Part shown: positions 8,431 through 33,736 of the stretch, in pieces
Numbering within the stretch: position 1 is the stretch's first letter
Layout of the letters: every line of letters begins with the position of its first letter
Source: an uncultured bacterium
GTDB taxonomy: Bacteria; Cyanobacteriota; Vampirovibrionia; Gastranaerophilales; Gastranaerophilaceae
Length of the DNA: 64,000 nucleotides
Assembly: GCA_958366705.1 (NCBI GenBank)
Contig: CATXCB010000003.1
Span: 16,193 to 80,192 of the forward strand
Direction of reading: 5' to 3'
Translations under genes and position numbers: made by a program
The notes under the pieces: model-generated
Seen by the model: only the letters and a program-made list of their open reading frames with translations
What the model was told of the DNA's origin: nothing
The model's database searches: none

Positions 8431-8455
8431 AAGCGTATCCGTTTCGGGTACGCTT
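8431..8455. terminator. stem-loop (aagcgtatccgtttcgggtacgctt) followed by T-run; bidirectional terminator candidate
   Basis: Lies between convergent rpsG (+) and the 8454..10061 (-) gene. Confidence 0.45.
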
Positions 8456-10061
8456 ATTTTTCGCGTATTTTTCTTAAATCATCAGCTGCTTTTGTTGTTT
8501 CTTTTATATTGTATTGGTTTTTTAATGTGTCAAATACAGATGGATTTACCAGTGTTGGCGGGCATGTTGCCATATACAGATTTTTTGCCCCGGCATTTTT
8601 TAGCATTACGATGTTGGATATGCTCATTACATCGCATGTCGTAAAGAAAAATGCTATTTGTTCACTGTCTATCGGGAATTTTTCGAAAAACTGATGTAGG
8701 ATATTTGTTGCTAGTGGTGCGTAGTTCCCTACATTTATTGTAAGTACATTTTCATTTTTGCTTTCATATGAAAAACTGATTGCGAACTCATTTTTTTTCA
8801 TTTTTGAGAAAAACTCATGAAAATATTCCGTTTGAACTTCTGAATATGCATTCATTCCTATGATATAAACTTTTTCGAGTTCTTTATTATTCAATTTGTA
8901 GATAATTTCATCAAATTGATTGGTTATTTCTTCATCATTGTATCCAAGGACTGTGTCTTCTTTTACTTTTCCCTTGGAAAATCCCTTTGCGTTGTTTGCG
9001 GTGTCTATAAGTTGCGTAAAATCATCGTTTTCTATTTTTACAACACCTTCAGGTACAATGTAATCATTGGAAAACAGTCTTCCCCTGTACAAGTATTCTG
9101 TGTTATTTCTTGAATTTTTTGTAAGTAGAATTGCTCCAGGAAAAGTTGCGAACTCTAGAATACTATTTTCTGTGTTGTCCCCGAAGTGTCCTTGTAGATT
9201 TTCGTAGTTGCTGAATTTTTTTAGGGCATGTGTGATTAATAGGTTTGAATGCGTGTAAACATCTATATTTTTATCCTTAGTTTCTTCAAGAATTTTTAGT
9301 AAGTCAAAAAAATTATTTCCTGAAACAAGGATTGCTTTACCTTTTCTTGATGAATGTGAAACTTTTACTTTTGAAATTTCTCCAAATTCTGTTAAAAGTA
9401 GTCTGCTTATTTCAAGTTGTAACTGGTGGTCTGAATTTGCAAATTTATTGATTTGTTCTTTAAGCTCATTATTGTTGATTTTTGAATGATTCAACATATC
9501 AAGGCTTGATAATACATCATGATAAATTTCATTGTTAAATTCGTTAAAGTCTGTAATTTTTATTAAATTTATGCAGGTACTTTTGACAAGTATCAGCAAA
9601 ATTTCCATTAAATTCTTTTGTATAGTGCTAAAATGATTATATTTTTTTAGAAATAATTTTTCGCCAAGTGCAATAGCTTTAGAGATAGGTGTTGTCTTAT
9701 CAAAATGAATGTGTGTTTTTAATTCTTTTGCCAAAATATTTTCATCTTTACAAATATTTTTGTATGCCTTTTTTGTGTCATTCAGTAAGAAATATTCTTT
9801 CTGAATAAGCTCAAAAAGTTGTTTTTCGCTAAATTCGTTGCTGGATACAAGTGTTGCAATATCATTTATTATATTAAATTTTATAGATTGATTGCTTGCA
9901 CCAAGTTTTTCCAATTCCAGCACATAGTGGGCAATCTGTTTGAGAAAATACATGATTACTTCCTGTAAAGCTGCAATATTAGGGGCTACTGAGCAGGCTC
10001 CTCTAGAAGTGCATTCGTTTGTGTCGATGTATGTTTTTCTATATTCATTGTTGTTATACAT
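8454..10061 (-). CDS. hypothetical protein with Hcp/prismane-like (hybrid-cluster protein/CODH family) N-terminus, divergent
   Basis: 535 aa. N-terminal TNECTSRGACSVAPNIAALQEVIMYFLKQIAHYVLELEKLG resembles the Hcp N-terminus (GCT.KGVCGK...LQDLL.Y.LKGI..Y), but only 2 of the 4 Cys of the canonical N-terminal cluster motif are present. Confidence 0.4.
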   Translation of the reverse strand: MYNNNEYRKTYIDTNECTSRGACSVAPNIAALQEVIMYFLKQIAHYVLELEKLGASNQSIKFNIINDIATLVSSNEFSEKQLFELIQKEYFLLNDTKKAYKNICKDENILAKELKTHIHFDKTTPISKAIALGEKLFLKKYNHFSTIQKNLMEILLILVKSTCINLIKITDFNEFNNEIYHDVLSSLDMLNHSKINNNELKEQINKFANSDHQLQLEISRLLLTEFGEISKVKVSHSSRKGKAILVSGNNFFDLLKILEETKDKNIDVYTHSNLLITHALKKFSNYENLQGHFGDNTENSILEFATFPGAILLTKNSRNNTEYLYRGRLFSNDYIVPEGVVKIENDDFTQLIDTANNAKGFSKGKVKEDTVLGYNDEEITNQFDEIIYKLNNKELEKVYIIGMNAYSEVQTEYFHEFFSKMKKNEFAISFSYESKNENVLTINVGNYAPLATNILHQFFEKFPIDSEQIAFFFTTCDVMSISNIVMLKNAGAKNLYMATCPPTLVNPSVFDTLKNQYNIKETTKAADDLRKIREK

Positions 10062-10415: not shown

Positions 10416-11555
10416 ATGCCTATGAGTAAGAAGAGTATTTTATTTATTTTCGGGACAAGACCGGAAGTTATCAAATTGGCACCTGTTATTTTAGAACTTA
10501 AAAAGTATCCTGACAGGTATAAAGTAATCTTGTGTAATACTGAACAGCAAAAAGAGCTTTCTAATCAGACATTGAGTTATTTTAATTTGAAAGCTGATAT
10601 AAATTTGGACTGTATGCGTCCAAATCAATCTTTGCTTGAGGTTCAGTCCAGAATTTTAACATCATTAGATTCAGTTTTTAAAACTAATCATGTTGATGCA
10701 ACTATTGTCCAGGGTGATACAATGACAGTGTTGTGTGGTGCACTTGCTAGTTTTTACTCAAAAATACCTGTTTTTCATGTCGAAGCTGGACTGAGATCTT
10801 ATGATATTTATGAACCGTTTCCGGAAGAAGTTATGCGTCAAATGACTTCAAGGGTTGCAGAATTACATTTTGCACCTACTGAAAAAAGTAAAAAAGCATT
10901 GCTAAAAGAGGATATTCTTGACAATAAAATTCATGTTACTGGTAACACTGTAATTGATGCATTATTTTGTTTGTCAGATCAGACTATGGAGATGGCTAAA
11001 GACTTTTATAAAGAACAGGGTGTTCCTGTTGATGATAAATTGGTTCTTATAACTGCTCACAGACGTGAGAACCATGGTGAAAGAATTGATAGAATACTTG
11101 ATGCTGTTGAATTTTTGGTCAACAATTATAAAGACCACAAATTTGTTATTCCTGTGCATCCAAATCCTAATGTTAAGGATAAAATTTATAATCGTCTTGA
11201 AGCGTATTCAAATGTTTATTTAATGAAGCCGTTGGATTATCCGTATCTGGTTTATCTAATGAAGAATGCTAAACTTATTTTGACGGATTCAGGCGGAATT
11301 CAAGAGGAAGCACCATCTTTTGGTTGCCCGACTCTTGTTATGAGATATGAAACTGAACGTCAGGAAGGAATTGATGCTGGTGTTTCTGTTCTTGTCGGGG
11401 CTGAATATGGCAAAATTATTTCATTGAGTTCAGAAATATTGAATAAATCTCGTGAGGCTTCAAGATTACAAGCTCAAAATCCTTATGGTACAGGGAATGC
11501 TGCAGAGCTGATAGAGCACATTATTCGTCATTACTTTGATGCTAAAGGGTTGTAG
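10416..11555 (+). CDS. wecB: UDP-N-acetylglucosamine 2-epimerase (non-hydrolysing)
   Basis: ILFIFGTRPEVIKLAPVI...ITAHRREN...SGGIQEEAPSFGCPTLVMR. Confidence 0.85.
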   Translation: MPMSKKSILFIFGTRPEVIKLAPVILELKKYPDRYKVILCNTEQQKELSNQTLSYFNLKADINLDCMRPNQSLLEVQSRILTSLDSVFKTNHVDATIVQGDTMTVLCGALASFYSKIPVFHVEAGLRSYDIYEPFPEEVMRQMTSRVAELHFAPTEKSKKALLKEDILDNKIHVTGNTVIDALFCLSDQTMEMAKDFYKEQGVPVDDKLVLITAHRRENHGERIDRILDAVEFLVNNYKDHKFVIPVHPNPNVKDKIYNRLEAYSNVYLMKPLDYPYLVYLMKNAKLILTDSGGIQEEAPSFGCPTLVMRYETERQEGIDAGVSVLVGAEYGKIISLSSEILNKSREASRLQAQNPYGTGNAAELIEHIIRHYFDAKGL

Positions 11556-20409: not shown

Positions 20410-21192
20410 TTATAAGTATTTAAATATATTGTATCCTTTGTCTAATGATTTTTTAGTTTCTTCATCCGGTTCAAAATTTTTATTATTATCAAAGTAGAAT
20501 TGACAATGATTAGAAAAGCTAATTTCAGCAGGAATAATGAACGATGAAGTAATTACACAATTTTTTTCTAATAGGTTACAACTTTTTTCTGGTGAGTATT
20601 TATTAAAAGTTATATGATATATATCTACATTTTGTCCATTAGATTTTATTTTAAAATTCACACTAGACCCGTCAACATTTACATCTTTGAAGTGTTTTGC
20701 AAAATCTTCTGCAATTTGTATTTCTGTTGTAGTGGTAGTGAGATTAACCTTGTGAAATTCTTTTTTTAATTTAGAATACGCTGTTGCGCATTGTGTGTTT
20801 TTGATAAAGTCAGCAGGATTATCAGGTGATTTCTGCGCGAATCTAACAATTGTCATTAATATGACTATAGGAAATAATATATTTATTGTAATAGCAAATA
20901 GTCCCCAGGCAGCCTGTTTTTTCCTAAAATCTTTTGGTGCCATCCACCAATCATTTTGATATGCCCACATATTACCTTTAAATCCACAATAGAATTGTAA
21001 TATGGTAAAAAGTATCCAATTTAATCCAAAAGGTAATTGAAACCAGATTAGAGGAATTGCTAAAAGTGTAATCCAGGCCTTATTAGGAATTCCCCAGAAA
21101 AAAGTCAAAAGAAAAGCACCCCAGTTGAATTCATTTAATTCTTTAGGGATGTTTTTTCCTTTATAACCTGTAAAAAATTCTTTCACGCTCAT
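20410..21192 (-). CDS. hypothetical membrane protein (last gene of the glycan operon)
   Basis: 260 aa. Trp-rich N-terminal TM helices, then a soluble domain. Confidence 0.4.
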   Translation of the reverse strand: MSVKEFFTGYKGKNIPKELNEFNWGAFLLTFFWGIPNKAWITLLAIPLIWFQLPFGLNWILFTILQFYCGFKGNMWAYQNDWWMAPKDFRKKQAAWGLFAITINILFPIVILMTIVRFAQKSPDNPADFIKNTQCATAYSKLKKEFHKVNLTTTTTEIQIAEDFAKHFKDVNVDGSSVNFKIKSNGQNVDIYHITFNKYSPEKSCNLLEKNCVITSSFIIPAEISFSNHCQFYFDNNKNFEPDEETKKSLDKGYNIFKYL

Positions 21193-21233: not shown

Positions 21234-23546
21234 TTAATAATTTAGACTTTTGAGTTCTTTCATTTTAGCACTTAACTTTCTATATTTGGTTTTATAGTGT
21301 TCTCTGCGTTTTTTGTTAAATATAAGTTTTTTAAATATTCCACATTTTAAATATTCCACATATAGTTTGTTCTTGTTGTTTACAAGAATAATTCTGCGGG
21401 TATTTTCTGCAGTTTCAGTATTAAGTCTATCCATTTGAGCAAAGAAAAGATTGTCTTCGTTAGAAAATTCTTTGCTAATTTTAGGGGCTTCAATCGCGTT
21501 AAGTAACCAGGTTTTAGAACGTTCAAGTTCTGAATTTAATTTTTCAAATCTGTTTGTATAATCAATTTTCTTTAATAAGTCTTCTCTTGAATATATTTCA
21601 TTTGCTCTTTGTAATTGTCTGCTTTGCATATCTACGGTTTCCAACAAAGTATCAAGTCTTGTATCATTTTCTCCCGTTCTTGGAGAGATAACTAGAAAAT
21701 TCTTTTGGAACATTAATGCAAAACAGGTTCCATGGAACGAATCGCCTATATAGTATTCACAGTTTTTGATATAATATAACCAATCTTCAACAGGGAGTTT
21801 ACCTTTCATATCAACGGGTTTTAAACCTAATTTATCTGCAACAAAATTTATTGCTTTTTTCTTTTCCGGCGTCATAGTTATTATATAATATGCCAAAAAT
21901 TTAGATTCTTTTTTTGATGACGTTTCAGCTATTTTTTCGTATTTACTTCTATCTATGTAGAATACAGGATCCCATATCTGCGTACTTGTCAGATTAAATG
22001 TGTTTTTAAGGATATCAACTCCGCTATTTTCTCTTACTGATAATGCATCAAAACGCTGCAGGTATTTTTGCATAATTGTTTTGTTGGTTTCAGAGCCATC
22101 ATATGATGGTATTCCAAAACTTGCTGAACAAGATATTTTCTTTGAGGTATCATCGGCAAAGTTTAAAAAGTATTTATCTCTATGGTGTTCAACACACCAA
22201 TCCCTAAACACCTGATCTGAACCTACAAGAAATGTTCTAATATCATTGTTCAAATTCTTTAAATCTATATAATCCTGGCAAAAACTTGTAGTCTCTAGGT
22301 ATTCTTTTTCAAATTTTTCACTAATACTATTTTTGTGAAGTTTTTTTTCTATTCTAGGATAATAATTAATTGTTTTTGGATTGTATCCATTTTCTTTTAG
22401 AAATTCGTTTATTGCATAATTTGTTAAGATTGCCCCTCTGTTCGGTACATACCAGAAGTTCATAATTCCAATATTATTTTCTTTTCCTATAGTTTTTTCA
22501 TATGCAGTGGTGAAAGAATTTGTTTCTAAGAGTTTGTAAAATTTATTTCTTAATCTATGAGCTTTAAACGGTTTTTCACAAGCTCTTTGTCTTGCATATT
22601 TTAAAGGAACTTCTTTCAATCGTTTAATTGATGGTTTTATATTGGACAATATCATTTCACCTTTAGGTGTATTTATCATATAAATTGAAGTTCCTAATTT
22701 ATCATCAAGCTTTCTATCAAATTTTTTTATTCCCCAGAAATCTGCAAGTGTTATATCACTTTGACGTGGTAGTGTAGCATATTTGCATTGTTCACAGGTT
22801 TCACTCATTGCAAGTTTTGAGTGATACACTTTCATATATTTATTATCTTTAAATTTTTTATTATTTTTTGTTATTACAACAGAGGAGCAGCTCCAGCCTG
22901 CTAGCTCTTTATCTCTAAAATTGATATTATCAATATCTCCAGCCATTTCATCAATGTATTTTTTATATACTTTTTGAGACGGGGCATACGTACAGTAAAT
23001 ATCTACAAGTATAAGTTTTTCATAATCTTTTTGTAAAAAATGCTTTAGACCTGCCACCTGACAAGGACAACCTGAAAATAAAACGTATGTATCTTTTTCA
23101 AGTAGTTCTTTTATGTTTTTAAAAAGATTTTCTGAAATTTTACTTTGAACATATTTTGAACCTTTTAATTTATTTAAATCATTTTGGTTGTTAATGATAA
23201 TGTGTTCAACGTCAAAATTATTATTAAATGCTGCGCCTGCTACATAACCATTTTGAGCTAAAACCCATTCCGCAATTAAGCTGAAAGCTCCACCGGAGGC
23301 ACATTGTTTTCTGAGTTCATCTTTTGCAATAATCGCGTATGTTTTGGGTTCTTTATATTTTGTTTCTGTGTAATTTAAAGATGGACATGTTTTTTTACAT
23401 AATCCACAATTGGTACACTTATTTTGGTCAATATGTGGTCTGTAAAATCCATTTTTATCTTGAATTATTGAAATAGCATTGTGCGGGCAAATATTTGCGC
23501 ATGCTGCACAACCCGTACATTGATTATTCTCTGTTATTTGTTCCAT
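21234..23546 (-). CDS. fusion: 2x[4Fe-4S] ferredoxin + coenzyme F420 hydrogenase/dehydrogenase beta-subunit-like domain + polysaccharide pyruvyl transferase domain
   Basis: N-terminal CTGCAACANICP and CTNCGLCKKTCP motifs, an FrhB/FpoF-like middle domain, and a C-terminal half containing the LVGSDQVF pyruvyl-transferase-type motif. 770 aa. Confidence 0.6.
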   Translation of the reverse strand: MEQITENNQCTGCAACANICPHNAISIIQDKNGFYRPHIDQNKCTNCGLCKKTCPSLNYTETKYKEPKTYAIIAKDELRKQCASGGAFSLIAEWVLAQNGYVAGAAFNNNFDVEHIIINNQNDLNKLKGSKYVQSKISENLFKNIKELLEKDTYVLFSGCPCQVAGLKHFLQKDYEKLILVDIYCTYAPSQKVYKKYIDEMAGDIDNINFRDKELAGWSCSSVVITKNNKKFKDNKYMKVYHSKLAMSETCEQCKYATLPRQSDITLADFWGIKKFDRKLDDKLGTSIYMINTPKGEMILSNIKPSIKRLKEVPLKYARQRACEKPFKAHRLRNKFYKLLETNSFTTAYEKTIGKENNIGIMNFWYVPNRGAILTNYAINEFLKENGYNPKTINYYPRIEKKLHKNSISEKFEKEYLETTSFCQDYIDLKNLNNDIRTFLVGSDQVFRDWCVEHHRDKYFLNFADDTSKKISCSASFGIPSYDGSETNKTIMQKYLQRFDALSVRENSGVDILKNTFNLTSTQIWDPVFYIDRSKYEKIAETSSKKESKFLAYYIITMTPEKKKAINFVADKLGLKPVDMKGKLPVEDWLYYIKNCEYYIGDSFHGTCFALMFQKNFLVISPRTGENDTRLDTLLETVDMQSRQLQRANEIYSREDLLKKIDYTNRFEKLNSELERSKTWLLNAIEAPKISKEFSNEDNLFFAQMDRLNTETAENTRRIILVNNKNKLYVEYLKCGIFKKLIFNKKRREHYKTKYRKLSAKMKELKSLNY

Positions 23547-24649
23547 ATTTTAAATTCCTTTTTTTCTGATAGTTTTTTTATTATGTTGTCAATAGTTTTG
23601 CTTTCATCATCTACGACAAGTTCTAAAAATTTCTTTTTAAACATATTATTAATCGAGCTAACTTCAAACATTGTGTCTTCAAATGTTTTATCCTTTCTAC
23701 GTTTGAAGCACCTGTTGATTTCTTCAATTTGTGCCTCTTCTGTTATTGTTATGAATCTCATTGATTTTGGATATAGAACTATTTGATTTTTTGCACCCAT
23801 GATTGTGATTATGTCTGTAAATCCAGATCTTAACGTTATATTTGTGTGGCATAGCGTGGCAAAATAACTTTCCTCAAATAATGGCAAAAATACTTTTTCA
23901 AAATTTTCAAATTGTTTTCTCTTTGTATTAAAAATAACTTTATATCCAATGTCTTCTAATTTAGAGGTTAAATTTGTCCAAAATTCAATACTTATTTCTT
24001 TTGAATCATATGAATGAGCATCTGGAGTTATGAGTATAACTTTTTTATCCTCAGAAATGTTTTTGTACAATTCTTCAACTTTATCTTTTACAATTTCTGG
24101 GACAACTGGTGTTTCCGGTATCGGGTCAGTAAGTTTAAACATTTTAGCGTATAATTCAAAAAAATTGGTAACATTAAGAGTTTCGACTTCTTTAAATACG
24201 TGATGAGACATTTCATAAAGATGTCCTTTAGTTAAACCATGTTTATTATGTTCACTGAATCCTTTATTTGTGCATAGTGCATAATAAAATTCAGGACATA
24301 CTTTTAGTGTTTCGTCTGCAAATTTAAATGTGTTTATGAATTGCAGCTGGGTATCTCCAGCGTAAAGTATTAGTATCTTGCCTCCATTTTGTCTTTTGAA
24401 TTCATCAAGTAACGCGCAGCACATCAAAAAATCACCCCAGGGCCAAAATGTTGAGAATATCCAGTAATCTGGATATTTGTTTTCAAGTTCTTGTATAAAT
24501 AAATTTAATGCGGGTGGAATAAACTTAGCATTAGCTTTTTTTCTTAGAGCTAGCCTAAGAGATCTTGAAAACGGAATTAAATTTATTAGTGATTTTGTTA
24601 TTTTAAGTTTTTTTAAACTATTATATTGCTGCATTTTATACTTTCTCAT
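23534..24649 (-). CDS. hypothetical protein, GT9-like (heptosyltransferase-fold) glycosyltransferase candidate; paralog of 28109..29242
   Basis: C-terminal ITLRSGFTDIITIMGAKNQIVLYP resembles the GT9 vDtGlsHLaAAl..P.i.lyGP motif. Shares the (S/T)(T/P)DA...(I/L)(S/T)LRSG(L/F) pattern with the 377-aa neighbour. Confidence 0.35.
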   Translation of the reverse strand: MRKYKMQQYNSLKKLKITKSLINLIPFSRSLRLALRKKANAKFIPPALNLFIQELENKYPDYWIFSTFWPWGDFLMCCALLDEFKRQNGGKILILYAGDTQLQFINTFKFADETLKVCPEFYYALCTNKGFSEHNKHGLTKGHLYEMSHHVFKEVETLNVTNFFELYAKMFKLTDPIPETPVVPEIVKDKVEELYKNISEDKKVILITPDAHSYDSKEISIEFWTNLTSKLEDIGYKVIFNTKRKQFENFEKVFLPLFEESYFATLCHTNITLRSGFTDIITIMGAKNQIVLYPKSMRFITITEEAQIEEINRCFKRRKDKTFEDTMFEVSSINNMFKKKFLELVVDDESKTIDNIIKKLSEKKEFKIWNK

Positions 24650-25301
24650 ATTTTAATTCTTTAAACTTTTTTATTGCTTCTTTATATGTTCTATCTTTCC
24701 TGAATAATGTTGCGGTGCCAAGAATATAACCTTTTACACCCAGAGTAGACCACTTTTCAATTCTTTCCGGTGTTACAGCTCCGTCCAGTACAATATCAAA
24801 ATTATATTCTTCTCTTAATTTAAGGAGTTTTTCTATTTTTTTATCAACGTAATCTAAATACTGTCTGCCTGCGTGCCCTGGATTTACTCCAAGCACAAGA
24901 ACCCTATCTACAGTATTTAATAATTCTTCAATACTTGGGATTGAAGTCCCGGGATTAATCGCAATTCCTGCTATTGCTCCAGCTCTATGTATTTTTTCAA
25001 TCGTAGTGGCAGGATCACTGTCTACTTCCGGATGAATGTAGATAATATCTATACCCAATTTGAATAGGATATCTAAATAGTTATAAGGTTTTCTTACCAT
25101 TAGATGTGCATCTACTTTTTTAGTTGTTGCTTTTTTTATAAATGCCATATCTTGGTAACCCATACCAAAGTTATCAACAAAACTTCCATCCATAATATCA
25201 ATATGAAAAGAATCTATGCCTGCTTGTTCCAGCTCATAAACTTCTTTTTCAAGATTTGCATAATTCGCGCACATCATTGATGCAGAAAGTTCAATATCCA
25301 T
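24636..25301 (-). CDS. ribulose-phosphate 3-epimerase family protein (Rpe / allulose-6-P epimerase-like)
   Basis: SMMCANYANL, HIDIMDGSFV, DAHLMV and VNPGHAG align with the Rpe motifs. Confidence 0.75.
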   Translation of the reverse strand: MDIELSASMMCANYANLEKEVYELEQAGIDSFHIDIMDGSFVDNFGMGYQDMAFIKKATTKKVDAHLMVRKPYNYLDILFKLGIDIIYIHPEVDSDPATTIEKIHRAGAIAGIAINPGTSIPSIEELLNTVDRVLVLGVNPGHAGRQYLDYVDKKIEKLLKLREEYNFDIVLDGAVTPERIEKWSTLGVKGYILGTATLFRKDRTYKEAIKKFKELKYEKV

Positions 25302-26206
25302 TATTTCTCCTCCTTTATGACAGGTCTTGCTATTATAAAGTTTGATTTGTTCAATTTAATTCCTTCATTTGGTTCAATAATGATTGTGGTGCCTGTTTGA
25401 ATTTTGCAATTTTCTATAATTGTTTCACCGTTTAATACTGTTAGACATTCCAGAGTATTACTATTATTTTTGTATTCGGTTGTATCCTCATATAGTTTGG
25501 TAGAATACAAACGTTCTATAATTTCTTCTCCATTATATTTTCTAGTTTTAGATTTAAGTTTAGTATTAATGGCTTTAAGTGCTTTATCTATATGCAGTTC
25601 CCTTTTATTACCATTTTTATCTTTCCTGTTAAAATCAAAAAATCTGTAAGTTAGGTTGCAGTTTTCTTCAATTTCATAGAATAAAGCTCCATGTGTTGCA
25701 GCATGCATTGTTCCTTGTTCGACAAAAACATAGTCATTTTCACCTATCTGTAGATGATCGATGACGTCTTCTTCTACGCGGTTCTCATTAATTTTTTGTT
25801 CAATTTCTTCAATTGTAGATACTCTGCATCCATTAAATAGCCATCTATTTGTTGGTGGTTCTATAAAGTACCATGATTCGTTTTTCCCAAATGGGCGATT
25901 CTCTATTTCTTGAGCACACTTATCATCTGGATGAACCTGAATACTTAAATCTTCCTTTGGATCGACTAGTGCAATGACAAATGGGAAACTCTCAAATTTG
26001 GCTAAACCGAATTTCGCTTTATTCTCTTGAAAATATTCTTTAAATTTTCGATTTTTATATTCACCGTTTATGATTTCACTTTCGAATTCACCGTTGGAAA
26101 CCAGTGAATATAAATGACCTAGTTTATCATGGCTTTCCGGTGCAAATGGAACCAATTTGGTACCGCCCCATATTGTTTCGTGTGAAACAGGTTTTAATAT
26201 ATGCAT
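25301..26206 (-). CDS. class I mannose-6-phosphate isomerase (Bacillus ManA/Pmi type, cupin)
   Basis: LKPVSHETIWGG and QVHPDD motifs. 301 aa. Confidence 0.75.
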   Translation of the reverse strand: MHILKPVSHETIWGGTKLVPFAPESHDKLGHLYSLVSNGEFESEIINGEYKNRKFKEYFQENKAKFGLAKFESFPFVIALVDPKEDLSIQVHPDDKCAQEIENRPFGKNESWYFIEPPTNRWLFNGCRVSTIEEIEQKINENRVEEDVIDHLQIGENDYVFVEQGTMHAATHGALFYEIEENCNLTYRFFDFNRKDKNGNKRELHIDKALKAINTKLKSKTRKYNGEEIIERLYSTKLYEDTTEYKNNSNTLECLTVLNGETIIENCKIQTGTTIIIEPNEGIKLNKSNFIIARPVIKEEK

Positions 26207-26215
26207 AATTTCTCC

Positions 26216-26602
26216 CTATAATGTTTTGTCAATAATTACTTCCAATGATGCTAAACCTTCATTTCTGTTAGGACTTACTGCGTATGCACACTTTAGACCC
26301 GATGGTTTATTATCATTGAGAAGTATTCTTTCACCCATTGGCATTTCAAAAAGTAGTTCATTATATCTGATATTGTGCTTTTTTAAAAATGCTTCGGTTT
26401 TTTCTCGGGCTTGTTTTTCCCTAGCTGTCATAATCAAGATAAAATCATCACCAGGTAAAGACTGTAGAAATTCTTTAGCTCCAGGTAAAAATTTATCTTC
26501 TCCTGTTTTGTATCCGTTATGTTCAACAAGAGTTCCGTCAAAATCAAATATCCATGTCTTACTTAGAGAGGATAGTCTCAAAGTATTCTCTTTTAAAAGC
26601 AT
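26216..26602 (-). CDS. HAD-superfamily phosphatase-like small protein
   Basis: FDFDGTL motif I. 128 aa. Overlaps the 5' neighbour by 44 nt. Confidence 0.5.
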   Translation of the reverse strand: MLLKENTLRLSSLSKTWIFDFDGTLVEHNGYKTGEDKFLPGAKEFLQSLPGDDFILIMTAREKQAREKTEAFLKKHNIRYNELLFEMPMGERILLNDNKPSGLKCAYAVSPNRNEGLASLEVIIDKTL

Positions 26603-28112
26603 TATTTTCTCCTTCTATGCATTCATTTAGCAAATACAATCCGTTATAGTATGCAACACACATTGAATCAAAATCCTCCCAAGCATGGCTTGCCAGTGAC
26701 AACCAGATTATTGAATGTATAATTTTGATTTCTTTAAGGTTACAATTTGGGATTTTTGACAGGAAGTAAGCTGTCATTGATTCCCAGCCGCCTGATTTTA
26801 TTGCGTATTCAACGCCATCATCGGTTATATCCAGTTTGAAATTCTTTATATTAAACTGGTCAAAGTTTCCCTGGATTGAATAGTATAATTTTGCCCAGTC
26901 ATATCGAATATCACCAAGTACCTGCTGGCTGCCAAAGTAGCCGCGAGCATCAATAAAGTAGATTTTACCGTTTTTATCTATCATTGTATTTGTTAGTGTG
27001 CAATCACCGTGTATCGGGCAGTATGTTGTATTAAACAGATTTTGCTCTACTATTCTTTTCAGCAGACTAGGGCAAGTGATAATATTTTTACATCTTTTGC
27101 CGTTTATCATAATGTAGTCATCATTTGAAAATGGTATTGCCTGTCTGATACTTTGTATTCTTGAAATTGTCTTTTTGTAGTATTCTTCTTCCAAATCCCA
27201 GTAATTTTTTTCTGCTGTTTCATAACTATGCAGTTTTGTTACACTTGTTATTAAACTATCTATAACCTTTGTTTTTTCGGCTATATTTAGTTTTGTATTG
27301 AAGATATTTGTTCCATTAATTTTACTCATTGTCAGCGGGTTGAGTGAATATATTTCAGGAATCGAATCAAAACCATATTCTGTCATTTTTTTATACCATA
27401 CAACCTCTCTGTCAATAAGTTTTTCTCCCTCTTTTGTTAGTCCGGACTTAATTACTTTATCTTTTGTAAATTCCATTTTGTTATACGGTCTACAGCGATT
27501 TTCTGTTGTTGATAATTTGTTTATTGCTTCAAGTGTACCTACTTCTTTTGAATTTGAAAGCGATATAGCATTCAAGGTTATATTTGAGTTTTTCAACCAA
27601 GTTGTAAATGAACCTGTTTCCGGAAAATCTTTAAAATAACTTTTGTTATTAAAAATATAGCATCCGGCAACACCGTATTCGGTTGATGGAAATTTTTCAA
27701 GTTTTCCGTTTTTAAAACTCCAGCTGCATTTGAAATTTCCTGATAAACCAATATAGCATTTAGATGAATCTAATTTTGATAAATCGAATTCCTCACTAAG
27801 CAATAAATCCGACCATATAAGCATAAATTGCTCATTATCAGGAATAAATTCAAGTGCTTGTTTTATTCCACAGGCATTCCCTTTACCCTCTGATTTTACA
27901 AGTATGTATTTTGCTTTTGCAAAGGTTTGCAGGTAATTTTCAAGTACTTTAAATTTGTAGTCTCCAATTATCACGAATTCTGCATCCGGAAATTTTTTGA
28001 ACATGTGAAATATTATAGGTAGATTATTAACCGGCACAATACATTTTGGTTTATTATGCGTAAGGTGTTCAAGTCTTGTTCCTTTTCCTCCTGCTTGAAT
28101 AACTATTTTCAT
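26559..28112 (-). CDS. bifunctional sugar-/alcohol-phosphate nucleotidyltransferase (N-terminal) + APH/choline-kinase-fold kinase (C-terminal)
   Basis: N-terminal MKIVIQAGGKGTRL nucleotidyltransferase signature. C-terminal HGDCTLTNTMI...IDARG (HGDxxxxN Brenner motif). The arrangement is LicC-LicA-like or MurU-AmgK-like. Confidence 0.6.
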   Translation of the reverse strand: MKIVIQAGGKGTRLEHLTHNKPKCIVPVNNLPIIFHMFKKFPDAEFVIIGDYKFKVLENYLQTFAKAKYILVKSEGKGNACGIKQALEFIPDNEQFMLIWSDLLLSEEFDLSKLDSSKCYIGLSGNFKCSWSFKNGKLEKFPSTEYGVAGCYIFNNKSYFKDFPETGSFTTWLKNSNITLNAISLSNSKEVGTLEAINKLSTTENRCRPYNKMEFTKDKVIKSGLTKEGEKLIDREVVWYKKMTEYGFDSIPEIYSLNPLTMSKINGTNIFNTKLNIAEKTKVIDSLITSVTKLHSYETAEKNYWDLEEEYYKKTISRIQSIRQAIPFSNDDYIMINGKRCKNIITCPSLLKRIVEQNLFNTTYCPIHGDCTLTNTMIDKNGKIYFIDARGYFGSQQVLGDIRYDWAKLYYSIQGNFDQFNIKNFKLDITDDGVEYAIKSGGWESMTAYFLSKIPNCNLKEIKIIHSIIWLSLASHAWEDFDSMCVAYYNGLYLLNECIEGENNAFKREYFETILSK

Positions 28113-29242
28113 TTTATTTTAGCCCTCATATTTACTGTATCTTTTATCCATTCAATAATTTTGTCTTCAGATTCTTTTGAATATTCAAGTTCAAAAATGT
28201 TTTTTCTGTTTGGGTCAATTGCTTTGAGTGAAAAACCTTTTGAAACTTTCATTTCTGATATGACATCAAACCTGTATCTTTCTTTAAAATTTGTATAAAG
28301 AATTATTTGTAAATTGTTTATACCCGACAGAATCTCAGATAAACCACTTCTCAAACTGATAATTGCCAACGCTTTGTGTGCAATAGCATATGCCTCTTCC
28401 AGTGTCATATCTTTTGAATTTCTAATAATTTTTATATTTAATTCTTTTTCAAGTTTATCCCAGAATTTTTTGTCAATATTTTCGCAGGTGGTTGCATCAG
28501 TTGATAAAAATACAAATTTTTTTATGTTATTTTTTTGTAAATAATCTCTTGTTCTTTTTTTTAATTCTTGAGATATTTTTACATTATTTGAGTTGGAGAT
28601 ATTCTTTTTAGAAATATTAAAAAAGTTGTATATTTCAGACATATAATGGCAATGCCCGTTTCTTATTTTTTCTTCAGTATTGGTATAGAATTTCATTGGG
28701 AATGCTACATACACATATTGTTCTCCAACCAACATAACTTTATTATTGATTTCGTAATGAAGATTTGTTGTATAGATTCTATCAATATTTGGGGTAAGCA
28801 TATTGATAAGATTTAGATGATATTTTTTTGTCGCAATTATCAGTGGTACATCAGATTTTAAGATTAGATTATTTAATATGAATTTAAGAAAAAGATATGC
28901 TTCTCCTAAATTGGATTTTAGAATAAATATTTTATTGTATTTAGGATTTACAATTTTCTTTAAGATTTTTTTTGTTTCTTCTTCCTTGCCTGTTATTCTT
29001 TTAAATGTGTTTAAAACTTTAAGCTCTATTATATCAAGATTTTCTATTCGCTCTAAAAGTGGCAAATTAAATAATTTAGTAATCCTATATTCTGTATAAT
29101 TTTCATATTTTTTTGTCTTTGACAGTATTCTGAGTATAGTTTTATATTTATAATTATAGCTTTTTGTAATAGTACAAACTGGTATACCAAATATTTGGTA
29201 TATTTCTTCTTTTTGTTTTTTTATTTTTTTTATAATACTCAT
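28109..29242 (-). CDS. hypothetical protein, GT9-like glycosyltransferase candidate; paralog of 23534..24649
   Basis: FLSTDATT...AIISLRSGLSEILSGINNLQIILYTN pattern. Confidence 0.35.
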   Translation of the reverse strand: MSIIKKIKKQKEEIYQIFGIPVCTITKSYNYKYKTILRILSKTKKYENYTEYRITKLFNLPLLERIENLDIIELKVLNTFKRITGKEEETKKILKKIVNPKYNKIFILKSNLGEAYLFLKFILNNLILKSDVPLIIATKKYHLNLINMLTPNIDRIYTTNLHYEINNKVMLVGEQYVYVAFPMKFYTNTEEKIRNGHCHYMSEIYNFFNISKKNISNSNNVKISQELKKRTRDYLQKNNIKKFVFLSTDATTCENIDKKFWDKLEKELNIKIIRNSKDMTLEEAYAIAHKALAIISLRSGLSEILSGINNLQIILYTNFKERYRFDVISEMKVSKGFSLKAIDPNRKNIFELEYSKESEDKIIEWIKDTVNMRAKIK

Positions 29243-31172: not shown

Positions 31173-32186
31173 TTAGTTTATAGCTCTGTTAAATCCGCTC
31201 CAATCAAAGGTTTTAGAGCTAACTAAAGAGCTAATTTGTTCAATATTTTGATTTTTTAAGTTTTTAAACTCGTCTTTAAAATTATTTTTCATATCTATCA
31301 CCGGCAATTGAAATTCTTTTGCAATTTTTGCGACTTTTATGTCGTAGTTTATGGCTAAAATTTTACATTTAGCGAGAAGTCCAATAATTATTGCGTGAAA
31401 TCTCATTGCAATAAGATATTCTGATTTTGAAATTTTAGATATTATTTCTTCATTTGTTAAGTTTGAATAAATAGTTGTTTTCATGTCAGGATTGAGCAAA
31501 TTAACAGCTTTTTGAAATCTTTTGCATATTTCAAGGTCAATTGCGTCTTGAAATGAATATATTTCAAGATTTTTATCGGAAAATACGTTACACACCTGTT
31601 GTGCCAATCTGTCAATAAAATCTTCATTCATGGTTCTAAAATCTCTAAGTTGGACGGCAACAGTATTGGTTTTTGAAGAGAAATCCACATCAGTAGAAAA
31701 AATAGGATCGCACACCAAATCTGAATTTATGTTCCAGCTTTTTAAGAGGTCGTAGCTTTTTTCATCTCTGACACTGATATATGTACAGTGTTTAAGCAAT
31801 TGCTTTGTCAATATTTTCCCAGCCATGCTGTTAATTGGACCTATTCCCTGAGCAAAAATAATAACTTTTTTCCTTAGAAAAAGCCCGATAGCTATAACTA
31901 CAAGATAATATATAAGACTTTTTACACTTGTCACATCCTGTAATAAACTGCCTCCACCTGATATCAGAACATCAGATTTTGATATAGCGCCTATAATATT
32001 TCTAAAATTAAAAGTTTTTATACTTCTGATATGTTTATAATTTTTTAAAGTATATTGCGGATCAGATGATATAACAGTAACGCGATGTTTATCTTGCTGT
32101 AATTTGTTAACCAGTACAGATAAAATTGCTTCATCTCCGAAGTTTTTAAATCCAAAGTAACCTGATAAAACAAATCTTTTTTTCAT
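31173..32186 (-). CDS. polysaccharide pyruvyl transferase (CsaB/WcaK family)
   Basis: N-terminal FVLSGYFGFKNFGDEAIL and C-terminal MRFHAIIIG motifs. Confidence 0.7.
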   Translation of the reverse strand: MKKRFVLSGYFGFKNFGDEAILSVLVNKLQQDKHRVTVISSDPQYTLKNYKHIRSIKTFNFRNIIGAISKSDVLISGGGSLLQDVTSVKSLIYYLVVIAIGLFLRKKVIIFAQGIGPINSMAGKILTKQLLKHCTYISVRDEKSYDLLKSWNINSDLVCDPIFSTDVDFSSKTNTVAVQLRDFRTMNEDFIDRLAQQVCNVFSDKNLEIYSFQDAIDLEICKRFQKAVNLLNPDMKTTIYSNLTNEEIISKISKSEYLIAMRFHAIIIGLLAKCKILAINYDIKVAKIAKEFQLPVIDMKNNFKDEFKNLKNQNIEQISSLVSSKTFDWSGFNRAIN

Positions 32187-33133
32187 TAATACTCTCCGGT
32201 ATTATATATTTTATAAACTTCATCGTGGTAAGGTATTGATTTTATTGCTCCTATTCCCTGAGCTTGCAGACCTGCATCAATAGATGCTATTTTTGCAGCT
32301 TCAACAGGTGAATATCCTTTTGCTATAGAATGCAGAAATGCACCATTAAATGCATCACCTGAAGAGGTAGTATCAACAATGTTTTCTGTGTAGAAAGGTA
32401 TAAAGTTTAAATTTCCCTGATGCTTGACAAAATATCCTTTATCATGGCTTGATTTTATAACAATAATTTGAACTCCGTTATCCGCAAGATGTTTTATTAT
32501 GTTTTCAAGAGATTCAATGTCAAAGATACTTTTAGCGTCATACTTAGAGCTCATTAGTAATATATCAGTCAGGGGAAGTATCTCATCAAAAAATTCTTTT
32601 GCATCTTCTGATGTTGTAACAATAGCTGAGTAATTCGGGTCATATGCTGTTGTGACGCCATTGTTTTTAGCTATTTCAAAAGCTTTTTTTACTGCTTCAC
32701 GAGATTTCATCGATAAAGATTGTGTAACACCTGAGGCATAAACAATTTTTGAACTTCTTATATATTCTTCATCAATGTCATCTATTGATAACTGTGCAGG
32801 TGCAATCTTTTTTCTATAGTATTCAAATTCTTTATCATGAACAGATGTTCTAGAGACCATGTATAACCCGTTTTTTTCTTCAACAACTTTTACATGTTTG
32901 GTATCTAGTCCTTCTTTTTCCCAGCTGGAAAGCATGTATTCTTTAAAAGAATCGTTGCCCAGACAGGTGATAAATCCAACATTTGAATTTAGTCTTTTCG
33001 CTGCAACTGCTACAACTAAAGAGTCTCCTCCGTAATATTTGTGAAGACATTCTGCATCTTTGAGTTTTTGGTTTGTAGAAAATTCAATCAGACTTTCTCC
33101 GATTGTTATCAAGTCAAATTTGTTTTCTGGCAT
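32186..33133 (-). CDS. PfkB-family carbohydrate kinase (2-dehydro-3-deoxygluconokinase-like)
   Basis: DLITIGESLIEF and DTTSSGDAFNGAF (the PfkB DTxGAGD motif). Confidence 0.75.
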   Translation of the reverse strand: MPENKFDLITIGESLIEFSTNQKLKDAECLHKYYGGDSLVVAVAAKRLNSNVGFITCLGNDSFKEYMLSSWEKEGLDTKHVKVVEEKNGLYMVSRTSVHDKEFEYYRKKIAPAQLSIDDIDEEYIRSSKIVYASGVTQSLSMKSREAVKKAFEIAKNNGVTTAYDPNYSAIVTTSEDAKEFFDEILPLTDILLMSSKYDAKSIFDIESLENIIKHLADNGVQIIVIKSSHDKGYFVKHQGNLNFIPFYTENIVDTTSSGDAFNGAFLHSIAKGYSPVEAAKIASIDAGLQAQGIGAIKSIPYHDEVYKIYNTGEY

Positions 33134-33136
33134 AAT

Positions 33137-33736
33137 TTATCTTATTTGCTCCAATAAATTTTTTGCTCGTTTTGTGATTTCTGCATAAGAATCAGCATTA
33201 GTAAGATTTCTGCCAACTCCTACTGCAACCGCACCTGCTTTGATATATTCCGGTACTTCTTCTAATTTTACATTCCCTTGAGGAATAATATTCAAAAATG
33301 GCATTGGTCTAAGCAGATTTTCAATATACTCAACACCGCCCATAGCAGTAATAGGATATATTTTTACAAGAGGAATTCTTGATTTCCATGCTGTATATGC
33401 CTCGTTAGCTGTTGATGTCCCGGCAATAAAAGGCAAACGCTTGTCTTTAGATATTTTTAGCAAATTATGCTGAAATATTGGTGAAGATATAATCTTTGCA
33501 CCGGAGTCAATAGCTGCCTGAGCTTGAATTGATGTGATTATACCTCCGGCACATATTATTGCATCGTTAGATAATGCTTTAATTGCGTTAAATATGCTTG
33601 GAGTTTCCACATTAATCTCCATAATATTTAAGCCGCCGTCTATAAGCGCTTTTGCTGTATCTATTACTACTTGGGTATCTGCGCTTCTAATAATTGGCAA
33701 TACTTTGTTTTTTGAAAGTTCATCAATTAAATTCAT
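33137..33736 (-). CDS. KDPG/KHG aldolase family protein (Eda-like)
   Basis: LPIIRSADTQVVIDTAKALIDGGLNIMEI...GAKIISSP. 199 aa. Confidence 0.8.
   Translation of the reverse strand: MNLIDELSKNKVLPIIRSADTQVVIDTAKALIDGGLNIMEINVETPSIFNAIKALSNDAIICAGGIITSIQAQAAIDSGAKIISSPIFQHNLLKISKDKRLPFIAGTSTANEAYTAWKSRIPLVKIYPITAMGGVEYIENLLRPMPFLNIIPQGNVKLEEVPEYIKAGAVAVGVGRNLTNADSYAEITKRAKNLLEQIR

What the first reader, a model, noticed from the sequence alone, without database searches (positions are those of the whole stretch)
21234..23546. Single 770-aa polypeptide fusing 2x[4Fe-4S] ferredoxin, F420H2-dehydrogenase-beta-like domain and a polysaccharide pyruvyl transferase
FrhB/FpoF-like proteins are often annotated next to pyruvyl transferases in polysaccharide loci, but their role there is unknown. 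Here the two are fused in one reading frame (CTGCAACANICP and CTNCGLCKKTCP at the N-terminus; the LVGSDQVF pyruvyl-transferase motif in the C-terminal half). This implies a redox-active cofactor (FeS/flavin) is physically coupled to ketal-pyruvate transfer. That function has no described mechanism.
Basis: partly seen in the sequence, partly recalled or inferred. Interest (0 to 1): 0.6.

Follow-up and report, generated by a model that had tools for sequence, protein, structure and literature searches.

The report
Iron-sulfur flavoprotein fused to pyruvyl transferase
The fusion gene is real, but it belongs to a very common, uncharacterised cassette of gut and rumen anaerobes that most likely attaches lactic-acid (lactyl ether) groups, rather than pyruvate ketals, to surface sugars.

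Summary
The 770-aa ORF (21234-23546, minus strand) exists as described. It has two ferredoxin CxxCxxCxxxCP motifs, an FrhB/FpoF-like core, a PF04230 pyruvyl-transferase (PvT) domain and a conserved helical tail.

It is not an assembly artefact and not rare. Same-length homologues down to 37% identity fill the top 120 database hits, and at least 596 species genomes encode relatives. In 80 fetched loci, 84 of 89 FrhB-like modules are fused to a PvT (in either order), adjacent to one, or within 10 kb of one. They sit in ordinary polysaccharide loci.

All 12 Cys (three predicted [4Fe-4S] clusters) and the PvT motifs are invariant, so both halves look active.

Best explanation (about 0.55): a two-step lactyl-ether synthase. 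The PvT domain transfers enolpyruvyl from PEP, and the FeS/flavin domain reduces the C=C. This is MurA/MurB logic with unrelated folds.

Support is indirect. In Klebsiella, the PvT genes paired with a flavin reductase (K22, K37, K66) all occur in capsules without pyruvate, and K22/K37 carry lactyl-glucuronic acid. FbiB shows a flavoenzyme can reduce enolpyruvyl to lactyl. Nothing is shown biochemically.

Verdict: a new variant of a known kind, of moderate interest.

The parts
21234..23546 (-). Whole fusion gene, 770 aa plus stop codon.
   Evidence: ORF list. Full-length homologues. AF2 model with pLDDT 92.3 and pTM 0.87.
23379..23522 (-). 2x[4Fe-4S] ferredoxin domain, aa 9-56. Cys 10/13/16/20 and 44/47/50/54. 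Proposed electron-entry module.
   Evidence: Pfam Fer4_7 and Fer4. All 8 Cys are invariant in A1 and A2.
23130..23330 (-). FrhB_FdhB_N part of the FrhB/FpoF-like core, aa 73-139. Contains the invariant SSGG (aa 82-86) and GSKYVQS (aa 129-135) motifs.
   Evidence: Pfam PF04422, 29.3 bits. Invariant columns. Foldseek matches to 8rja_E, FdhB, FrhB and HCAR.
22632..23084 (-). FrhB_FdhB_C part, aa 155-305. Contains PCQ (aa 161-163) and invariant C162, C185, C251, C254, which are predicted to hold a third [4Fe-4S] cluster next to the flavin site.
   Evidence: Pfam PF04432, 67.3 bits. Invariant Cys in fused and stand-alone homologues. Fold matches.
22443..22631 (-). Helical linker, aa 306-368, between the reductase and transferase halves.
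   Evidence: No Pfam hit. Confidently modelled helices with pLDDT above 90. Moderately conserved.
21684..22442 (-). Polysaccharide pyruvyl-transferase (PF04230) domain, aa 369-621. Invariant residues: N369, G371, S443-D444-Q445, S503/R505/E506, S603/H605, K615.
   Evidence: Pfam, 113 bits. Foldseek match to yeast Pvg1p 5ax7, E=1.2e-5. Motifs shared with the window's CsaB.
21237..21683 (-). Conserved C-terminal helical tail, aa 622-770, with invariant R630 and W680 and a basic amphipathic end. Its first ~60 aa travel with the PvT module even in reverse-order fusions.
   Evidence: Tail HMM hits after PvT modules in both fusion orders. Long helices with pLDDT above 90. Any role in membrane or partner binding is inference only.
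23534..24649 (-). GT9-like glycosyltransferase gene that overlaps the fusion start by 13 nt. It probably adds the residue that the fusion modifies.
   Evidence: Pfam Glyco_transf_9, 24.5 bits. The same GT9-like to fusion overlap is seen in L045.
31173..32186 (-). Stand-alone CsaB-type ketal-pyruvyl transferase in the same gene string. It is not part of the fusion system and serves as an internal contrast: a PvT with no redox partner.
   Evidence: NCBIfam TIGR03609 CsaB, 271 bits against a cutoff of 213. Only about 25% identical to the fused PvT domain.

Best explanation
The protein is a self-contained, two-step lactyl-ether (1-carboxyethyl) synthase for a surface glycan.

Step 1 (inferred from family membership). 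The C-terminal PF04230 domain uses phosphoenolpyruvate to put a three-carbon unit on a sugar hydroxyl. Instead of closing a ketal with a second hydroxyl, it eliminates phosphate and leaves an enolpyruvyl ether, as MurA does.

Step 2 (inferred). The N-terminal half reduces the enolpyruvyl C=C to a lactyl ether. Electrons from a low-potential donor (ferredoxin or flavodoxin in these anaerobes) enter through the two ferredoxin-type [4Fe-4S] clusters. They pass to the third cluster of the FrhB-like core and then to its flavin. [quoted passage not shown]

The logic is that of MurA+MurB, built from unrelated folds. In this window the gene is translationally coupled to a GT9-like transferase and sits in a string with an MsbA-like exporter, so the target is probably a lipid-linked, LPS-type or other envelope glycan.

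What is shown: domain identity, conservation of all cofactor and active-site motifs, and the tight genomic coupling of the two modules. What is inferred: the product, the electron donor and the acceptor.
For: 1. Obligate partnership. Of 89 complete FrhB-like modules in 80 genome loci, 56 are fused FrhB-PvT, 6 are fused in the reverse order PvT-FrhB (two sub-clades), and 3 lie in giant multi-module ORFs. A further 12 are adjacent to a PvT gene, 7 have one within 10 kb, and only 5 have none in the fetched flank. Annotated isolates show the same pairs: Pseudobutyrivibrio xylanivorans pNP95 and the Desulfotalea psychrophila plasmid.

2. Both halves look catalytically intact. Twelve Cys are invariant, as are GSKYVQS and PCQ and the PvT motifs. 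Folds match FrhB, FdhB and HCAR for the N-half and Pvg1p for the C-half.

3. No second redox module follows the flavoprotein. The flavin must therefore reduce a small substrate, as FrhB reduces F420. HCAR shows that the fold also works on non-F420 substrates (HCAR's ferredoxin dependence is own knowledge).

4. Genotype-chemotype correlation in Klebsiella (PMC4616057). Among 79 K types, PvT genes occur in only four types whose capsule lacks pyruvate: K8, K22, K37 and K66. K22 and K37 pair the PvT with a 'nitroreductase'. K66 pairs it with the only 'coenzyme F420 hydrogenase' gene in the whole set. K22/K37 capsules contain 4-O-[(S)-1-carboxyethyl]-glucuronic acid.

5. E. coli O124 (lactyl-glucose) and O164 (plain glucose) differ by a frameshift in one gene of a dedicated lactyl-sugar pathway. 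Two such genes were reported for Shigella boydii 17. Campylobacter pgl loci with a PvT gene correlate with a 234-Da sugar, which equals hexose + 72 and was proposed to be glucolactilic acid.

6. Chemical precedent. The nitroreductase-fold domain of FbiB reduces a PEP-derived enolpyruvyl group to lactyl with FMNH2 (PMC6450877). MurB does the same with FAD (established knowledge).

7. Canonical ketal transferases need no reductase. The window's own CsaB orthologue is an example.
Against: - There is no biochemical or structural-glycan evidence for any FrhB-linked PvT.
- Every characterised PF04230 enzyme makes a ketal. None is known to release an enolpyruvyl ether.
- The Klebsiella correlation rests on effectively two independent loci (K22 and K37 are one locus).
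- K8 is an orphan PvT without a reductase.
- I could not verify from held texts that the K66 capsule contains a lactyl sugar. That it does is my recollection only.
- I could not establish which protein families the E. coli and Shigella lactyl-sugar genes (wfeP and its partner) belong to. The papers are not held, and a DNA search of E. coli genomes found nothing.
- FAD binding and the electron donor are inferred from family membership.
- I could not inspect the model coordinates, so the distance between the flavin site and the transferase site is unknown.
Confidence: 0.55

Rival explanations
1. The two domains cooperate on a PEP-derived substituent, but the product is something other than a simple lactyl ether. 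Possibilities include reductive opening or another modification of a pyruvate ketal, reduction of a different unsaturated or keto intermediate on the same sugar, or reduction of the donor before transfer.
For: The same coupling evidence applies, and so does the intact cofactor set. Nothing here fixes the order of the steps or the product.
Against: Lactyl ethers are the only common reduced three-carbon acid substituents known on bacterial glycans (established knowledge). The K22/K37 case points specifically to lactyl. Flavin hydride transfer to an enolpyruvyl methylene has two precedents, whereas reduction of a ketal has none (and established knowledge of MurB).
Confidence: 0.2
2. The transferase makes an ordinary pyruvate ketal. 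The FeS/flavin half is a redox sensor, an oxygen gate or a structural scaffold that only regulates or localises the transferase.
For: The PvT motifs are the canonical ones shared with CsaB. FeS domains sometimes act as sensors (general knowledge).
Against: The whole electron path is invariant across phyla (three clusters plus the flavin-site motifs), both in fused and in separate proteins. That is more than a sensor would need. In Klebsiella an unrelated flavoenzyme (a nitroreductase) takes the same position next to a PvT, which argues for catalysis rather than a particular sensor fold. Those capsules also lack pyruvate ketals. Characterised ketal transferases work alone (review PMC6801904).
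Confidence: 0.13
3. The FrhB-like half is a genuine F420-dependent enzyme, and the fusion couples F420H2 oxidation to glycan modification.
For: The best NCBIfam and PDB sequence relatives are FpoF, Fsr and F420-reducing enzymes.
Against: The score is far below the FpoF equivalog cutoff (53.7 vs 475 bits). The hosts are gut and rumen Clostridia, Bacteroidales, Gastranaerophilales, spirochaetes and CPR, lineages not known to make F420 (own knowledge, not tested here). The fold also includes HCAR, which is not an F420 enzyme.
Confidence: 0.07
4. The fusion is an artefact, that is, a frameshift or misassembly joining two genes.
For: A split version exists elsewhere: the L050 gene pair is 67% identical to the fused gene in L022.
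Against: There are independent assemblies at 97% identity and hundreds of same-length homologues. The linker is conserved, and the single-chain model is confident.
Confidence: 0.01

Closest known systems
MurA + MurB (UDP-GlcNAc enolpyruvyl transferase and UDP-N-acetylenolpyruvoylglucosamine reductase)
   Same: The proposed chemistry is the same. A PEP-derived enolpyruvyl ether forms on a sugar hydroxyl, and a flavin then transfers hydride to the methylene to give a lactyl ether.
   Different: Neither fold is related. The transferase here has a GT-B-like PF04230 fold (Pvg1p-like), not the MurA/EPSP-synthase fold. The reductase is an FrhB-type FeS flavoprotein fed through three [4Fe-4S] clusters, not an NADPH-dependent MurB. 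Here the two activities are fused. This is a functional analogy, not family membership.
Ketal-pyruvyl transferases of PF04230 (CsaB, Pvg1p, WcaK, and others)
   Same: The C-terminal domain is a clear family member by HMM, fold and motifs.
   Different: Characterised members act alone and make cyclic ketals. This clade is obligatorily coupled to a reductase. It is only about 25% identical to the CsaB orthologue in the same window.
FrhB/FdhB/FpoF family, especially the ferredoxin-dependent members HCAR and BciB
   Same: Pfam domains, fold and an FpoF-like N-terminal ferredoxin insertion. BciB reduces a vinyl C=C with ferredoxin electrons (own knowledge), which is the type of reaction proposed here.
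   Different: There is no hydrogenase, dehydrogenase or sulfite-reductase partner, and no chlorophyll context. The domain is fused to a sugar-modifying transferase, and the hosts are not expected to contain F420.
[quoted passage not shown]
   Same: It is a flavoenzyme that reduces a PEP-derived enolpyruvyl group to lactyl. It mirrors the 'nitroreductase' found beside the PvT in Klebsiella K22/K37.
   Different: It has a nitroreductase fold with FMN, acts on a phosphodiester-linked enolpyruvyl group in a cofactor pathway, and has no FeS clusters.
Lactyl-sugar (glucolactilic acid) genes of E. coli O124, Shigella dysenteriae 3 and S. boydii 17
   Same: This is a genetically defined two-gene route to a lactyl ether on an O-antigen sugar.
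   Different: I could not determine the protein families of those genes. They are described as acting at the UDP-sugar level, and no FeS fusion has been reported.

Membership tests
Polysaccharide pyruvyl transferase (Pfam PF04230) | HMM score above the curated gathering cutoff over most of the model | tested here: met
   113.2 bits against a cutoff of 25.3. Model positions 1-277 of 280 match at aa 369-621.
Polysaccharide pyruvyl transferase (Pfam PF04230) | GT-B-like fold resembling a solved family member | tested here: met
   Foldseek match to yeast Pvg1p 5ax7_A: E=1.2e-5, TM (target) 0.53. Other GT-B enzymes also match.
Polysaccharide pyruvyl transferase (Pfam PF04230) | PEP-dependent formation of a cyclic pyruvate ketal | not testable with these tools
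   This needs an enzyme assay. Indirect evidence from Klebsiella K22, K37 and K66 suggests that reductase-linked members do not yield ketals.
CsaB subfamily (NCBIfam TIGR03609) | Score above the equivalog cutoff | tested here: not met
   CsaB is not among the best 25 NCBIfam matches of the fusion. The neighbouring 337-aa gene passes, with 271 bits against a cutoff of 213.
FrhB/FdhB/FpoF family (Pfam PF04422 + PF04432) | Both family HMMs above their gathering cutoffs, in the right order | tested here: met
   PF04422 scores 29.3 against 22 at aa 73-139. PF04432 scores 67.3 against 23.3 at aa 155-305.
FrhB/FdhB/FpoF family (Pfam PF04422 + PF04432) | Fold of solved members | tested here: met
   Foldseek matches: 8rja_E (E=1e-13), FdhB 7bkb_E, FrhB 9r51_B and 6qii_B, HCAR 5dqr.
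FrhB/FdhB/FpoF family (Pfam PF04422 + PF04432) | Four Cys ligands for the core [4Fe-4S] cluster, and a flavin site | tested here: inconclusive
   C162, C185, C251, C254 and the GSKYVQS and PCQ motifs are invariant in 30 and in 17 homologues. I could not map them residue by residue onto a solved structure. Cofactor content needs spectroscopy.
FpoF (NCBIfam NF040616) | Score above the curated cutoff | tested here: not met
   53.7 bits against a cutoff of 475. The protein shares only the architecture of an N-terminal ferredoxin plus an FrhB core.
F420-dependent oxidoreductases | Use of coenzyme F420 as substrate | not tested
   Host genomes were not screened for F420 biosynthesis genes. The host range makes F420 use unlikely, but that is an inference.
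2x[4Fe-4S] bacterial-type ferredoxin domain (PF12838) | Two CxxCxxCxxxCP motifs and an HMM score above the cutoff | tested here: met
   Motifs at aa 10-21 and 44-55. Score 40.2 bits against 27. All 8 Cys are invariant.
MurA/MurB system | Homology to MurA (EPSP-synthase-like fold) and MurB (PCMH-type FAD domain) | tested here: not met
   No Pfam, NCBIfam or fold match to either. The resemblance lies only in the proposed chemistry.

The most novel reading that the evidence does not exclude
FrhB-like/PvT cassettes, of which this fusion is the commonest form, are the long-missing general enzymes that make lactyl-ether (1-carboxyethyl) sugars in bacterial polysaccharides. In anaerobes they run on ferredoxin electrons through a three-cluster wire. 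This would mean that lactyl-ether decoration of capsules, EPS and LPS is widespread and unrecognised across the gut and rumen microbiota, found in hundreds of species from Bacteroidales to CPR. It would also make it the first FeS/flavin-dependent glycan-tailoring step, linking surface charge to the cell's redox state.
Probability: 0.5. Interest if true: 0.65.

Novelty: new variant of a known kind. Interest (0 to 1): 0.5.

Why it matters
'Coenzyme F420 hydrogenase beta-like' genes are scattered through capsule, EPS and O-antigen loci of gut and rumen bacteria that are not expected to make F420, and annotation pipelines give them a name with no functional meaning there. Separately, lactyl-ether sugars are known from many bacterial polysaccharides, but apart from muramic acid their biosynthesis has not, to my knowledge, been reconstituted.

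The fusion joins these two loose ends into one directly testable hypothesis with a simple read-out: +72 Da versus +70 Da on the acceptor, and dependence on reductant. If the hypothesis is right:
- thousands of misnamed genes could be re-annotated;
- an acidic, acid-stable glycan decoration could be predicted from sequence, which matters for serotyping, phage receptors and immune recognition of commensal capsules;
- a new substrate class would be added to the FrhB flavoprotein family.

If it is wrong, the obligate coupling of a three-cluster flavoprotein to a PEP-dependent transferase still needs an explanation.

Tried and rejected
- **Frameshift or assembly artefact.** Rejected.
- **Residue-level mapping of the four core Cys and the flavin site onto solved FrhB-family structures.** A single-sequence PDB search of aa 60-345 found nothing. 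The profile search was swamped by ferredoxin-domain hits, and its FrhB-family alignments covered only positions 2-167.
- **Sequence search of the PvT domain against the PDB.** No hit. Only the fold search linked it to Pvg1p.
- **Finding the protein families of the E. coli and Shigella lactyl-sugar genes.** The primary papers are not held (Knirel 2017, Liu 2008). The O-antigen surveys have no usable supplements or mentions. A blastn search of the fusion gene against 5,426 E. coli genomes gave no match.
- **Confirming the K66 capsule structure.** It is not in the K-PAM paper or in the Klebsiella papers and supplement.
- **Campylobacter source paper (Nothaft 2012).** Not held.
- **HCAR and BciB papers.** Not held.
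- **Butyrivibrio genome paper.** It does not mention acidic EPS sugars.
- **Conserved neighbours as a clue to the acceptor.** The window's neighbours are not conserved across loci, except for generic ABC exporters and one partial match in L045.
- **Literature search for prior functional work on the pairing.** Only the Klebsiella catalogue holds both terms in a relevant context. The 2019 pyruvylation review mentions no reductase partner.
Full report
**1. The observation**

A 770-aa ORF with an ATG start lies on the minus strand at 21234..23546. Pfam places a 2x[4Fe-4S] ferredoxin domain at aa 9-56, FrhB_FdhB_N at 73-139, FrhB_FdhB_C at 155-305 and PS_pyruv_trans at 369-621, each above its gathering cutoff. 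The best NCBIfam matches are FpoF-type proteins, which share the 'ferredoxin insertion plus FrhB core' layout, but the score is far below the equivalog cutoff (53.7 vs 475 bits). AlphaFold2, run with a 30-sequence alignment, gives one compact model (pLDDT 92.3, pTM 0.87). Its N-terminal half matches solved FrhB-family proteins: 8rja_E at E=1e-13, FdhB, FrhB and plant HCAR. Its C-terminal half matches GT-B folds, including the yeast pyruvyl transferase Pvg1p.

**2. Not an artefact, and not rare**

A 97%-identical 770-aa protein occurs in independent assemblies (P0001; L001, a human-gut MAG). The 120 best hits in the 5.8-billion-protein collection are nearly all 747-865-aa proteins with the same Pfam set, down to 37% identity. 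In total 2,108 of the 8,000 candidates scored reach E<=1e-5. They include Gastranaerophilales, gut Alphaproteobacteria, Bacteroidales, Brachyspira and other spirochaetes, Lachnospiraceae, Ruminococcus, Desulfovibrio, Desulfobulbus, Lentisphaerae and a Moraniibacteriota (CPR) genome. These are essentially gut, rumen and other anaerobic habitats.

**3. The two halves are obligate partners**

I built HMMs for the reductase module, the transferase module and the tail from alignment A1, then scanned all ORFs of the 80 fetched loci. There were 89 complete FrhB-like modules:
- 56 fused FrhB→PvT;
- 6 fused in the opposite order, PvT→FrhB, forming two sub-clades (L061/L067/L068/L079 and L062/L078);
- 3 inside ~1,800-aa ORFs carrying three PvT and up to two FrhB modules (L016, L017, L023);
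- 12 encoded by a separate gene within 300 bp of a PvT gene, in either order;
- 7 with a PvT gene within 10 kb;
- 5 with no PvT in the available flank, some of these on short contigs.

Because the loci were ranked by similarity to the full-length query, fused forms are over-represented. Even so, among the 24 stand-alone FrhB-like genes 19 are linked to a PvT gene. Fusion in both orders, most simply explained by independent fusion events, is classic evidence that two proteins act together.

Annotated isolate genomes show the same thing. Pseudobutyrivibrio xylanivorans MA3014 plasmid pNP95 has two PvT plus 'Coenzyme F420 hydrogenase/dehydrogenase beta subunit C-terminal domain' pairs in one EPS locus. 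Desulfotalea psychrophila has the pair in a Wza/Wzc-type locus.

The 142 immediate neighbours of the cassette are dominated by GT2 (31), with other glycosyltransferases, UDP-galactopyranose mutase, O-acyltransferases, Wzx-type flippases and EpsG/Wzy-like polymerases also present. The particular neighbours of the window gene are not conserved. The cassette is therefore a portable glycan-tailoring unit.

**4. Both halves look active**

Across 30 fused homologues (37-77% identity) the following are invariant:
- the eight ferredoxin Cys;
- four further Cys in the FrhB core (C162, C185, C251, C254);
- the SSGG, GSKYVQS and PCQ motifs;
- the transferase residues N369/G371, S443-D444-Q445, S503/R505/E506, S603/H605 and K615;
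- R630 and W680 in the tail.

The same 12 Cys and core motifs are invariant when stand-alone FrhB-like genes from other phyla are included. The fused PvT domain shares the SVR[ED] and xxFH motifs with the CsaB orthologue in the same window, at only about 25% identity. I could not map the four core Cys onto a solved structure residue by residue. 'Third [4Fe-4S] cluster plus flavin' is therefore an inference from family membership and conservation.

**5. What the redox half is for**

In FpoF and Fsr, electrons leave the flavin through FeS clusters towards another redox module. Here nothing redox-active follows, so the flow must be the FrhB direction: FeS clusters to flavin to a small acceptor in the pocket that holds F420 in FrhB. 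The hosts are not expected to make F420 (own knowledge, not tested). The fold also includes HCAR, a ferredoxin-dependent enzyme of chlorophyll metabolism, and BciB, a ferredoxin-dependent vinyl reductase (both own knowledge; the papers are not held).

Ketal formation by PF04230 enzymes is redox-neutral, and characterised members work alone. The window itself encodes such an enzyme: the 337-aa gene at 31173-32186 passes the NCBIfam CsaB equivalog cutoff and has no reductase partner. The simplest reducible species a PEP-dependent transferase can generate is an enolpyruvyl ether. Reducing it gives a lactyl (1-carboxyethyl) ether, as in MurA/MurB (established knowledge).

**6. Independent support for 'PvT + flavin reductase = lactyl ether'**

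(a) *Klebsiella.* The survey of all 79 Klebsiella cps loci (PMC4616057) states that 46 types have capsules without pyruvylation, yet a gene for adding pyruvyl groups was found in four of them: K8, K22, K37 and K66. Its Table S2 shows that K22 and K37 carry PvT wclZ together with a 'nitroreductase' found only in those two types. K66 carries PvT wcqF together with the only 'coenzyme_F420_hydrogenase' gene in the whole data set. K22 (and K37, which differs only by acetylation) contains 4-O-[(S)-1-carboxyethyl]-D-glucuronic acid (Parolis 1988, cited in PMC3857182). So three of the four 'orphan' transferases have a flavin reductase beside them, and two of those capsules demonstrably carry a lactyl ether. 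That K66 also has a lactyl sugar is my unverified recollection.

(b) *Precedent for the reductase step.* The nitroreductase-fold domain of FbiB reduces the terminal methylene of a PEP-derived enolpyruvyl group to lactyl with FMNH2 (PMC6450877). This is a direct precedent for the K22/K37 arrangement.

(c) *E. coli and Shigella.* E. coli O124 (lactyl-glucose) and O164 (plain glucose) have near-identical gene clusters. They differ by a frameshift in wfeP, described as responsible for UDP-GlcLA synthesis (PMC7685785). 'Two new genes' for glucolactilic acid synthesis were reported for Shigella boydii 17 (title cited in PMC5643014). I could not determine their protein families.

(d) *Campylobacter.* A 234-Da sugar (hexose 162 + 72), proposed to be glucolactilic acid, has been found consistently in Campylobacter species whose pgl operons contain a pyruvyl transferase gene.

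No paper in the searchable library connects pyruvylation with F420-type proteins beyond the Klebsiella catalogue. The 2019 review of glycan pyruvylation mentions no reductase partner.

**7. Local context**

The fusion start overlaps the end of a GT9-like glycosyltransferase gene by 13 nt. Upstream in the same minus-strand string are:
- an RPE/allulose-6-P-epimerase-like gene;
- a PMI-like isomerase;
- a 517-aa nucleotidyltransferase;
- an unknown 377-aa gene;
- an MsbA-like exporter (544 bits, just under the MsbA cutoff);
- csaB.

In L045, a rumen Clostridiales MAG whose fusion is only about 31% identical, a homologous nucleotidyltransferase carrying an APH-type kinase domain, a SIS isomerase and a GT9-like gene overlapping the fusion start recur. 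This suggests a small pathway that makes an NDP-sugar from a ketose phosphate and transfers it with the GT9-like enzyme. The fusion would then decorate that residue, probably on a lipid-linked, LPS-type intermediate. This is inference from two loci only.

**8. Comparison with known systems, and novelty**

The C-terminal domain is a member of PF04230, and the N-terminal half is a member of the FrhB/FdhB family. The protein is not FpoF, not CsaB, and not homologous to MurA or MurB; the MurA/MurB resemblance is in the proposed chemistry only.

The fusion architecture is abundant in public data but carries uninformative names. I found no experimental characterisation. Enterobacterial genetics had already tied dedicated genes to lactyl sugars, and PvT genes are noted beside lactyl-type sugars in Campylobacter. 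The general idea is therefore not categorically new. What would be new is assigning the FeS/FrhB-type reductase to this role, together with the scale of its distribution in anaerobes. I rate it a new variant of a known kind, interest 0.5.

**9. Confidence**

| Explanation | Probability |
|---|---|
| Lactyl-ether synthase mechanism | about 0.55 |
| Another reductive product on a PEP-derived group | about 0.2 |
| Regulatory or structural redox domain on an ordinary ketal transferase | about 0.13 |
| True F420 dependence | about 0.07 |
| Artefact | about 0.01 |

The main weaknesses are the lack of any biochemical data, a genotype-chemotype correlation resting on two independent Klebsiella loci, and my inability to check the enterobacterial lactyl-sugar genes or the geometry of the model.

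Noticed in passing
window 31173-32186 (-), with 10416-11555 (+): A stand-alone pyruvyl transferase passes the NCBIfam CsaB equivalog cutoff (271 vs 213 bits). A UDP-GlcNAc 2-epimerase lies about 20 kb away. Together they suggest pyruvylated-ManNAc cell-wall glycan anchoring of SLH-domain proteins in this organism.
   Followed up: partly
window 23534-28112 (-); L045 2545-6607 (+): A sub-cassette sits upstream of the fusion: a nucleotidyltransferase of about 500-517 aa (with an APH-type kinase domain in L045), a sugar-phosphate isomerase/epimerase (PMI-like plus RPE-like in the window, SIS in L045) and a GT9-like transferase overlapping the fusion start. It recurs in two very distant lineages. 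It may be an undescribed NDP-sugar pathway feeding the residue that the fusion modifies.
   Followed up: partly
L016 6857-12259, L017 6863-12259, L023 6917-12259 (+): Giant ORFs of about 1,800 aa in Lachnospiraceae/Clostridia MAGs contain three PvT modules, one complete and one partial FrhB-like module and three tail segments. Each is preceded by a further ordinary fusion gene. They could be multi-site tailoring enzymes, or assembly-collapsed tandem paralogues.
   Followed up: no
L050 9941-12195 vs L022 5633-8083: A split FrhB-like/PvT gene pair with overlapping ORFs is 67% identical to a fused gene in another Clostridia MAG. This is either a recent fission or a sequencing frameshift.
   Followed up: no
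window 32186-33736 (-); L012: KDG kinase and KDPG/KHG aldolase genes lie directly upstream of csaB. Homologues of all three also occur together within the 22-kb locus L012. The aldolase releases pyruvate, so a metabolic link to pyruvylation is conceivable, but it may be coincidence.
   Followed up: no
window 20410-21192 (-) and 28109-29242 (-): Two genes in the same string match no Pfam or NCBIfam family: a 260-aa predicted membrane protein just downstream of the fusion, and a 377-aa protein. Among the 80 loci, homologues occur only in the near-identical locus L001.
   Followed up: partly
Literature: PMC4616057 (Klebsiella K8): K8 is the fourth Klebsiella type with a pyruvyl-transferase gene but no reported capsule pyruvylation, and it has no reductase gene listed. 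It could be an incomplete structure, an inactive gene or a genuine exception to the proposed rule.
   Followed up: no
window 33803-35791 (+), 38562-41087 (+), 8454-10061 (-): Other genes in the window: a CHASE2-domain adenylate/guanylate cyclase, an 841-aa radical-SAM protein with a DUF2344 domain, and a prismane/hybrid-cluster-type protein. These fit an anaerobic, diderm, Melainabacteria-like gut organism of about 30% GC. No link to the finding was seen.
   Followed up: no
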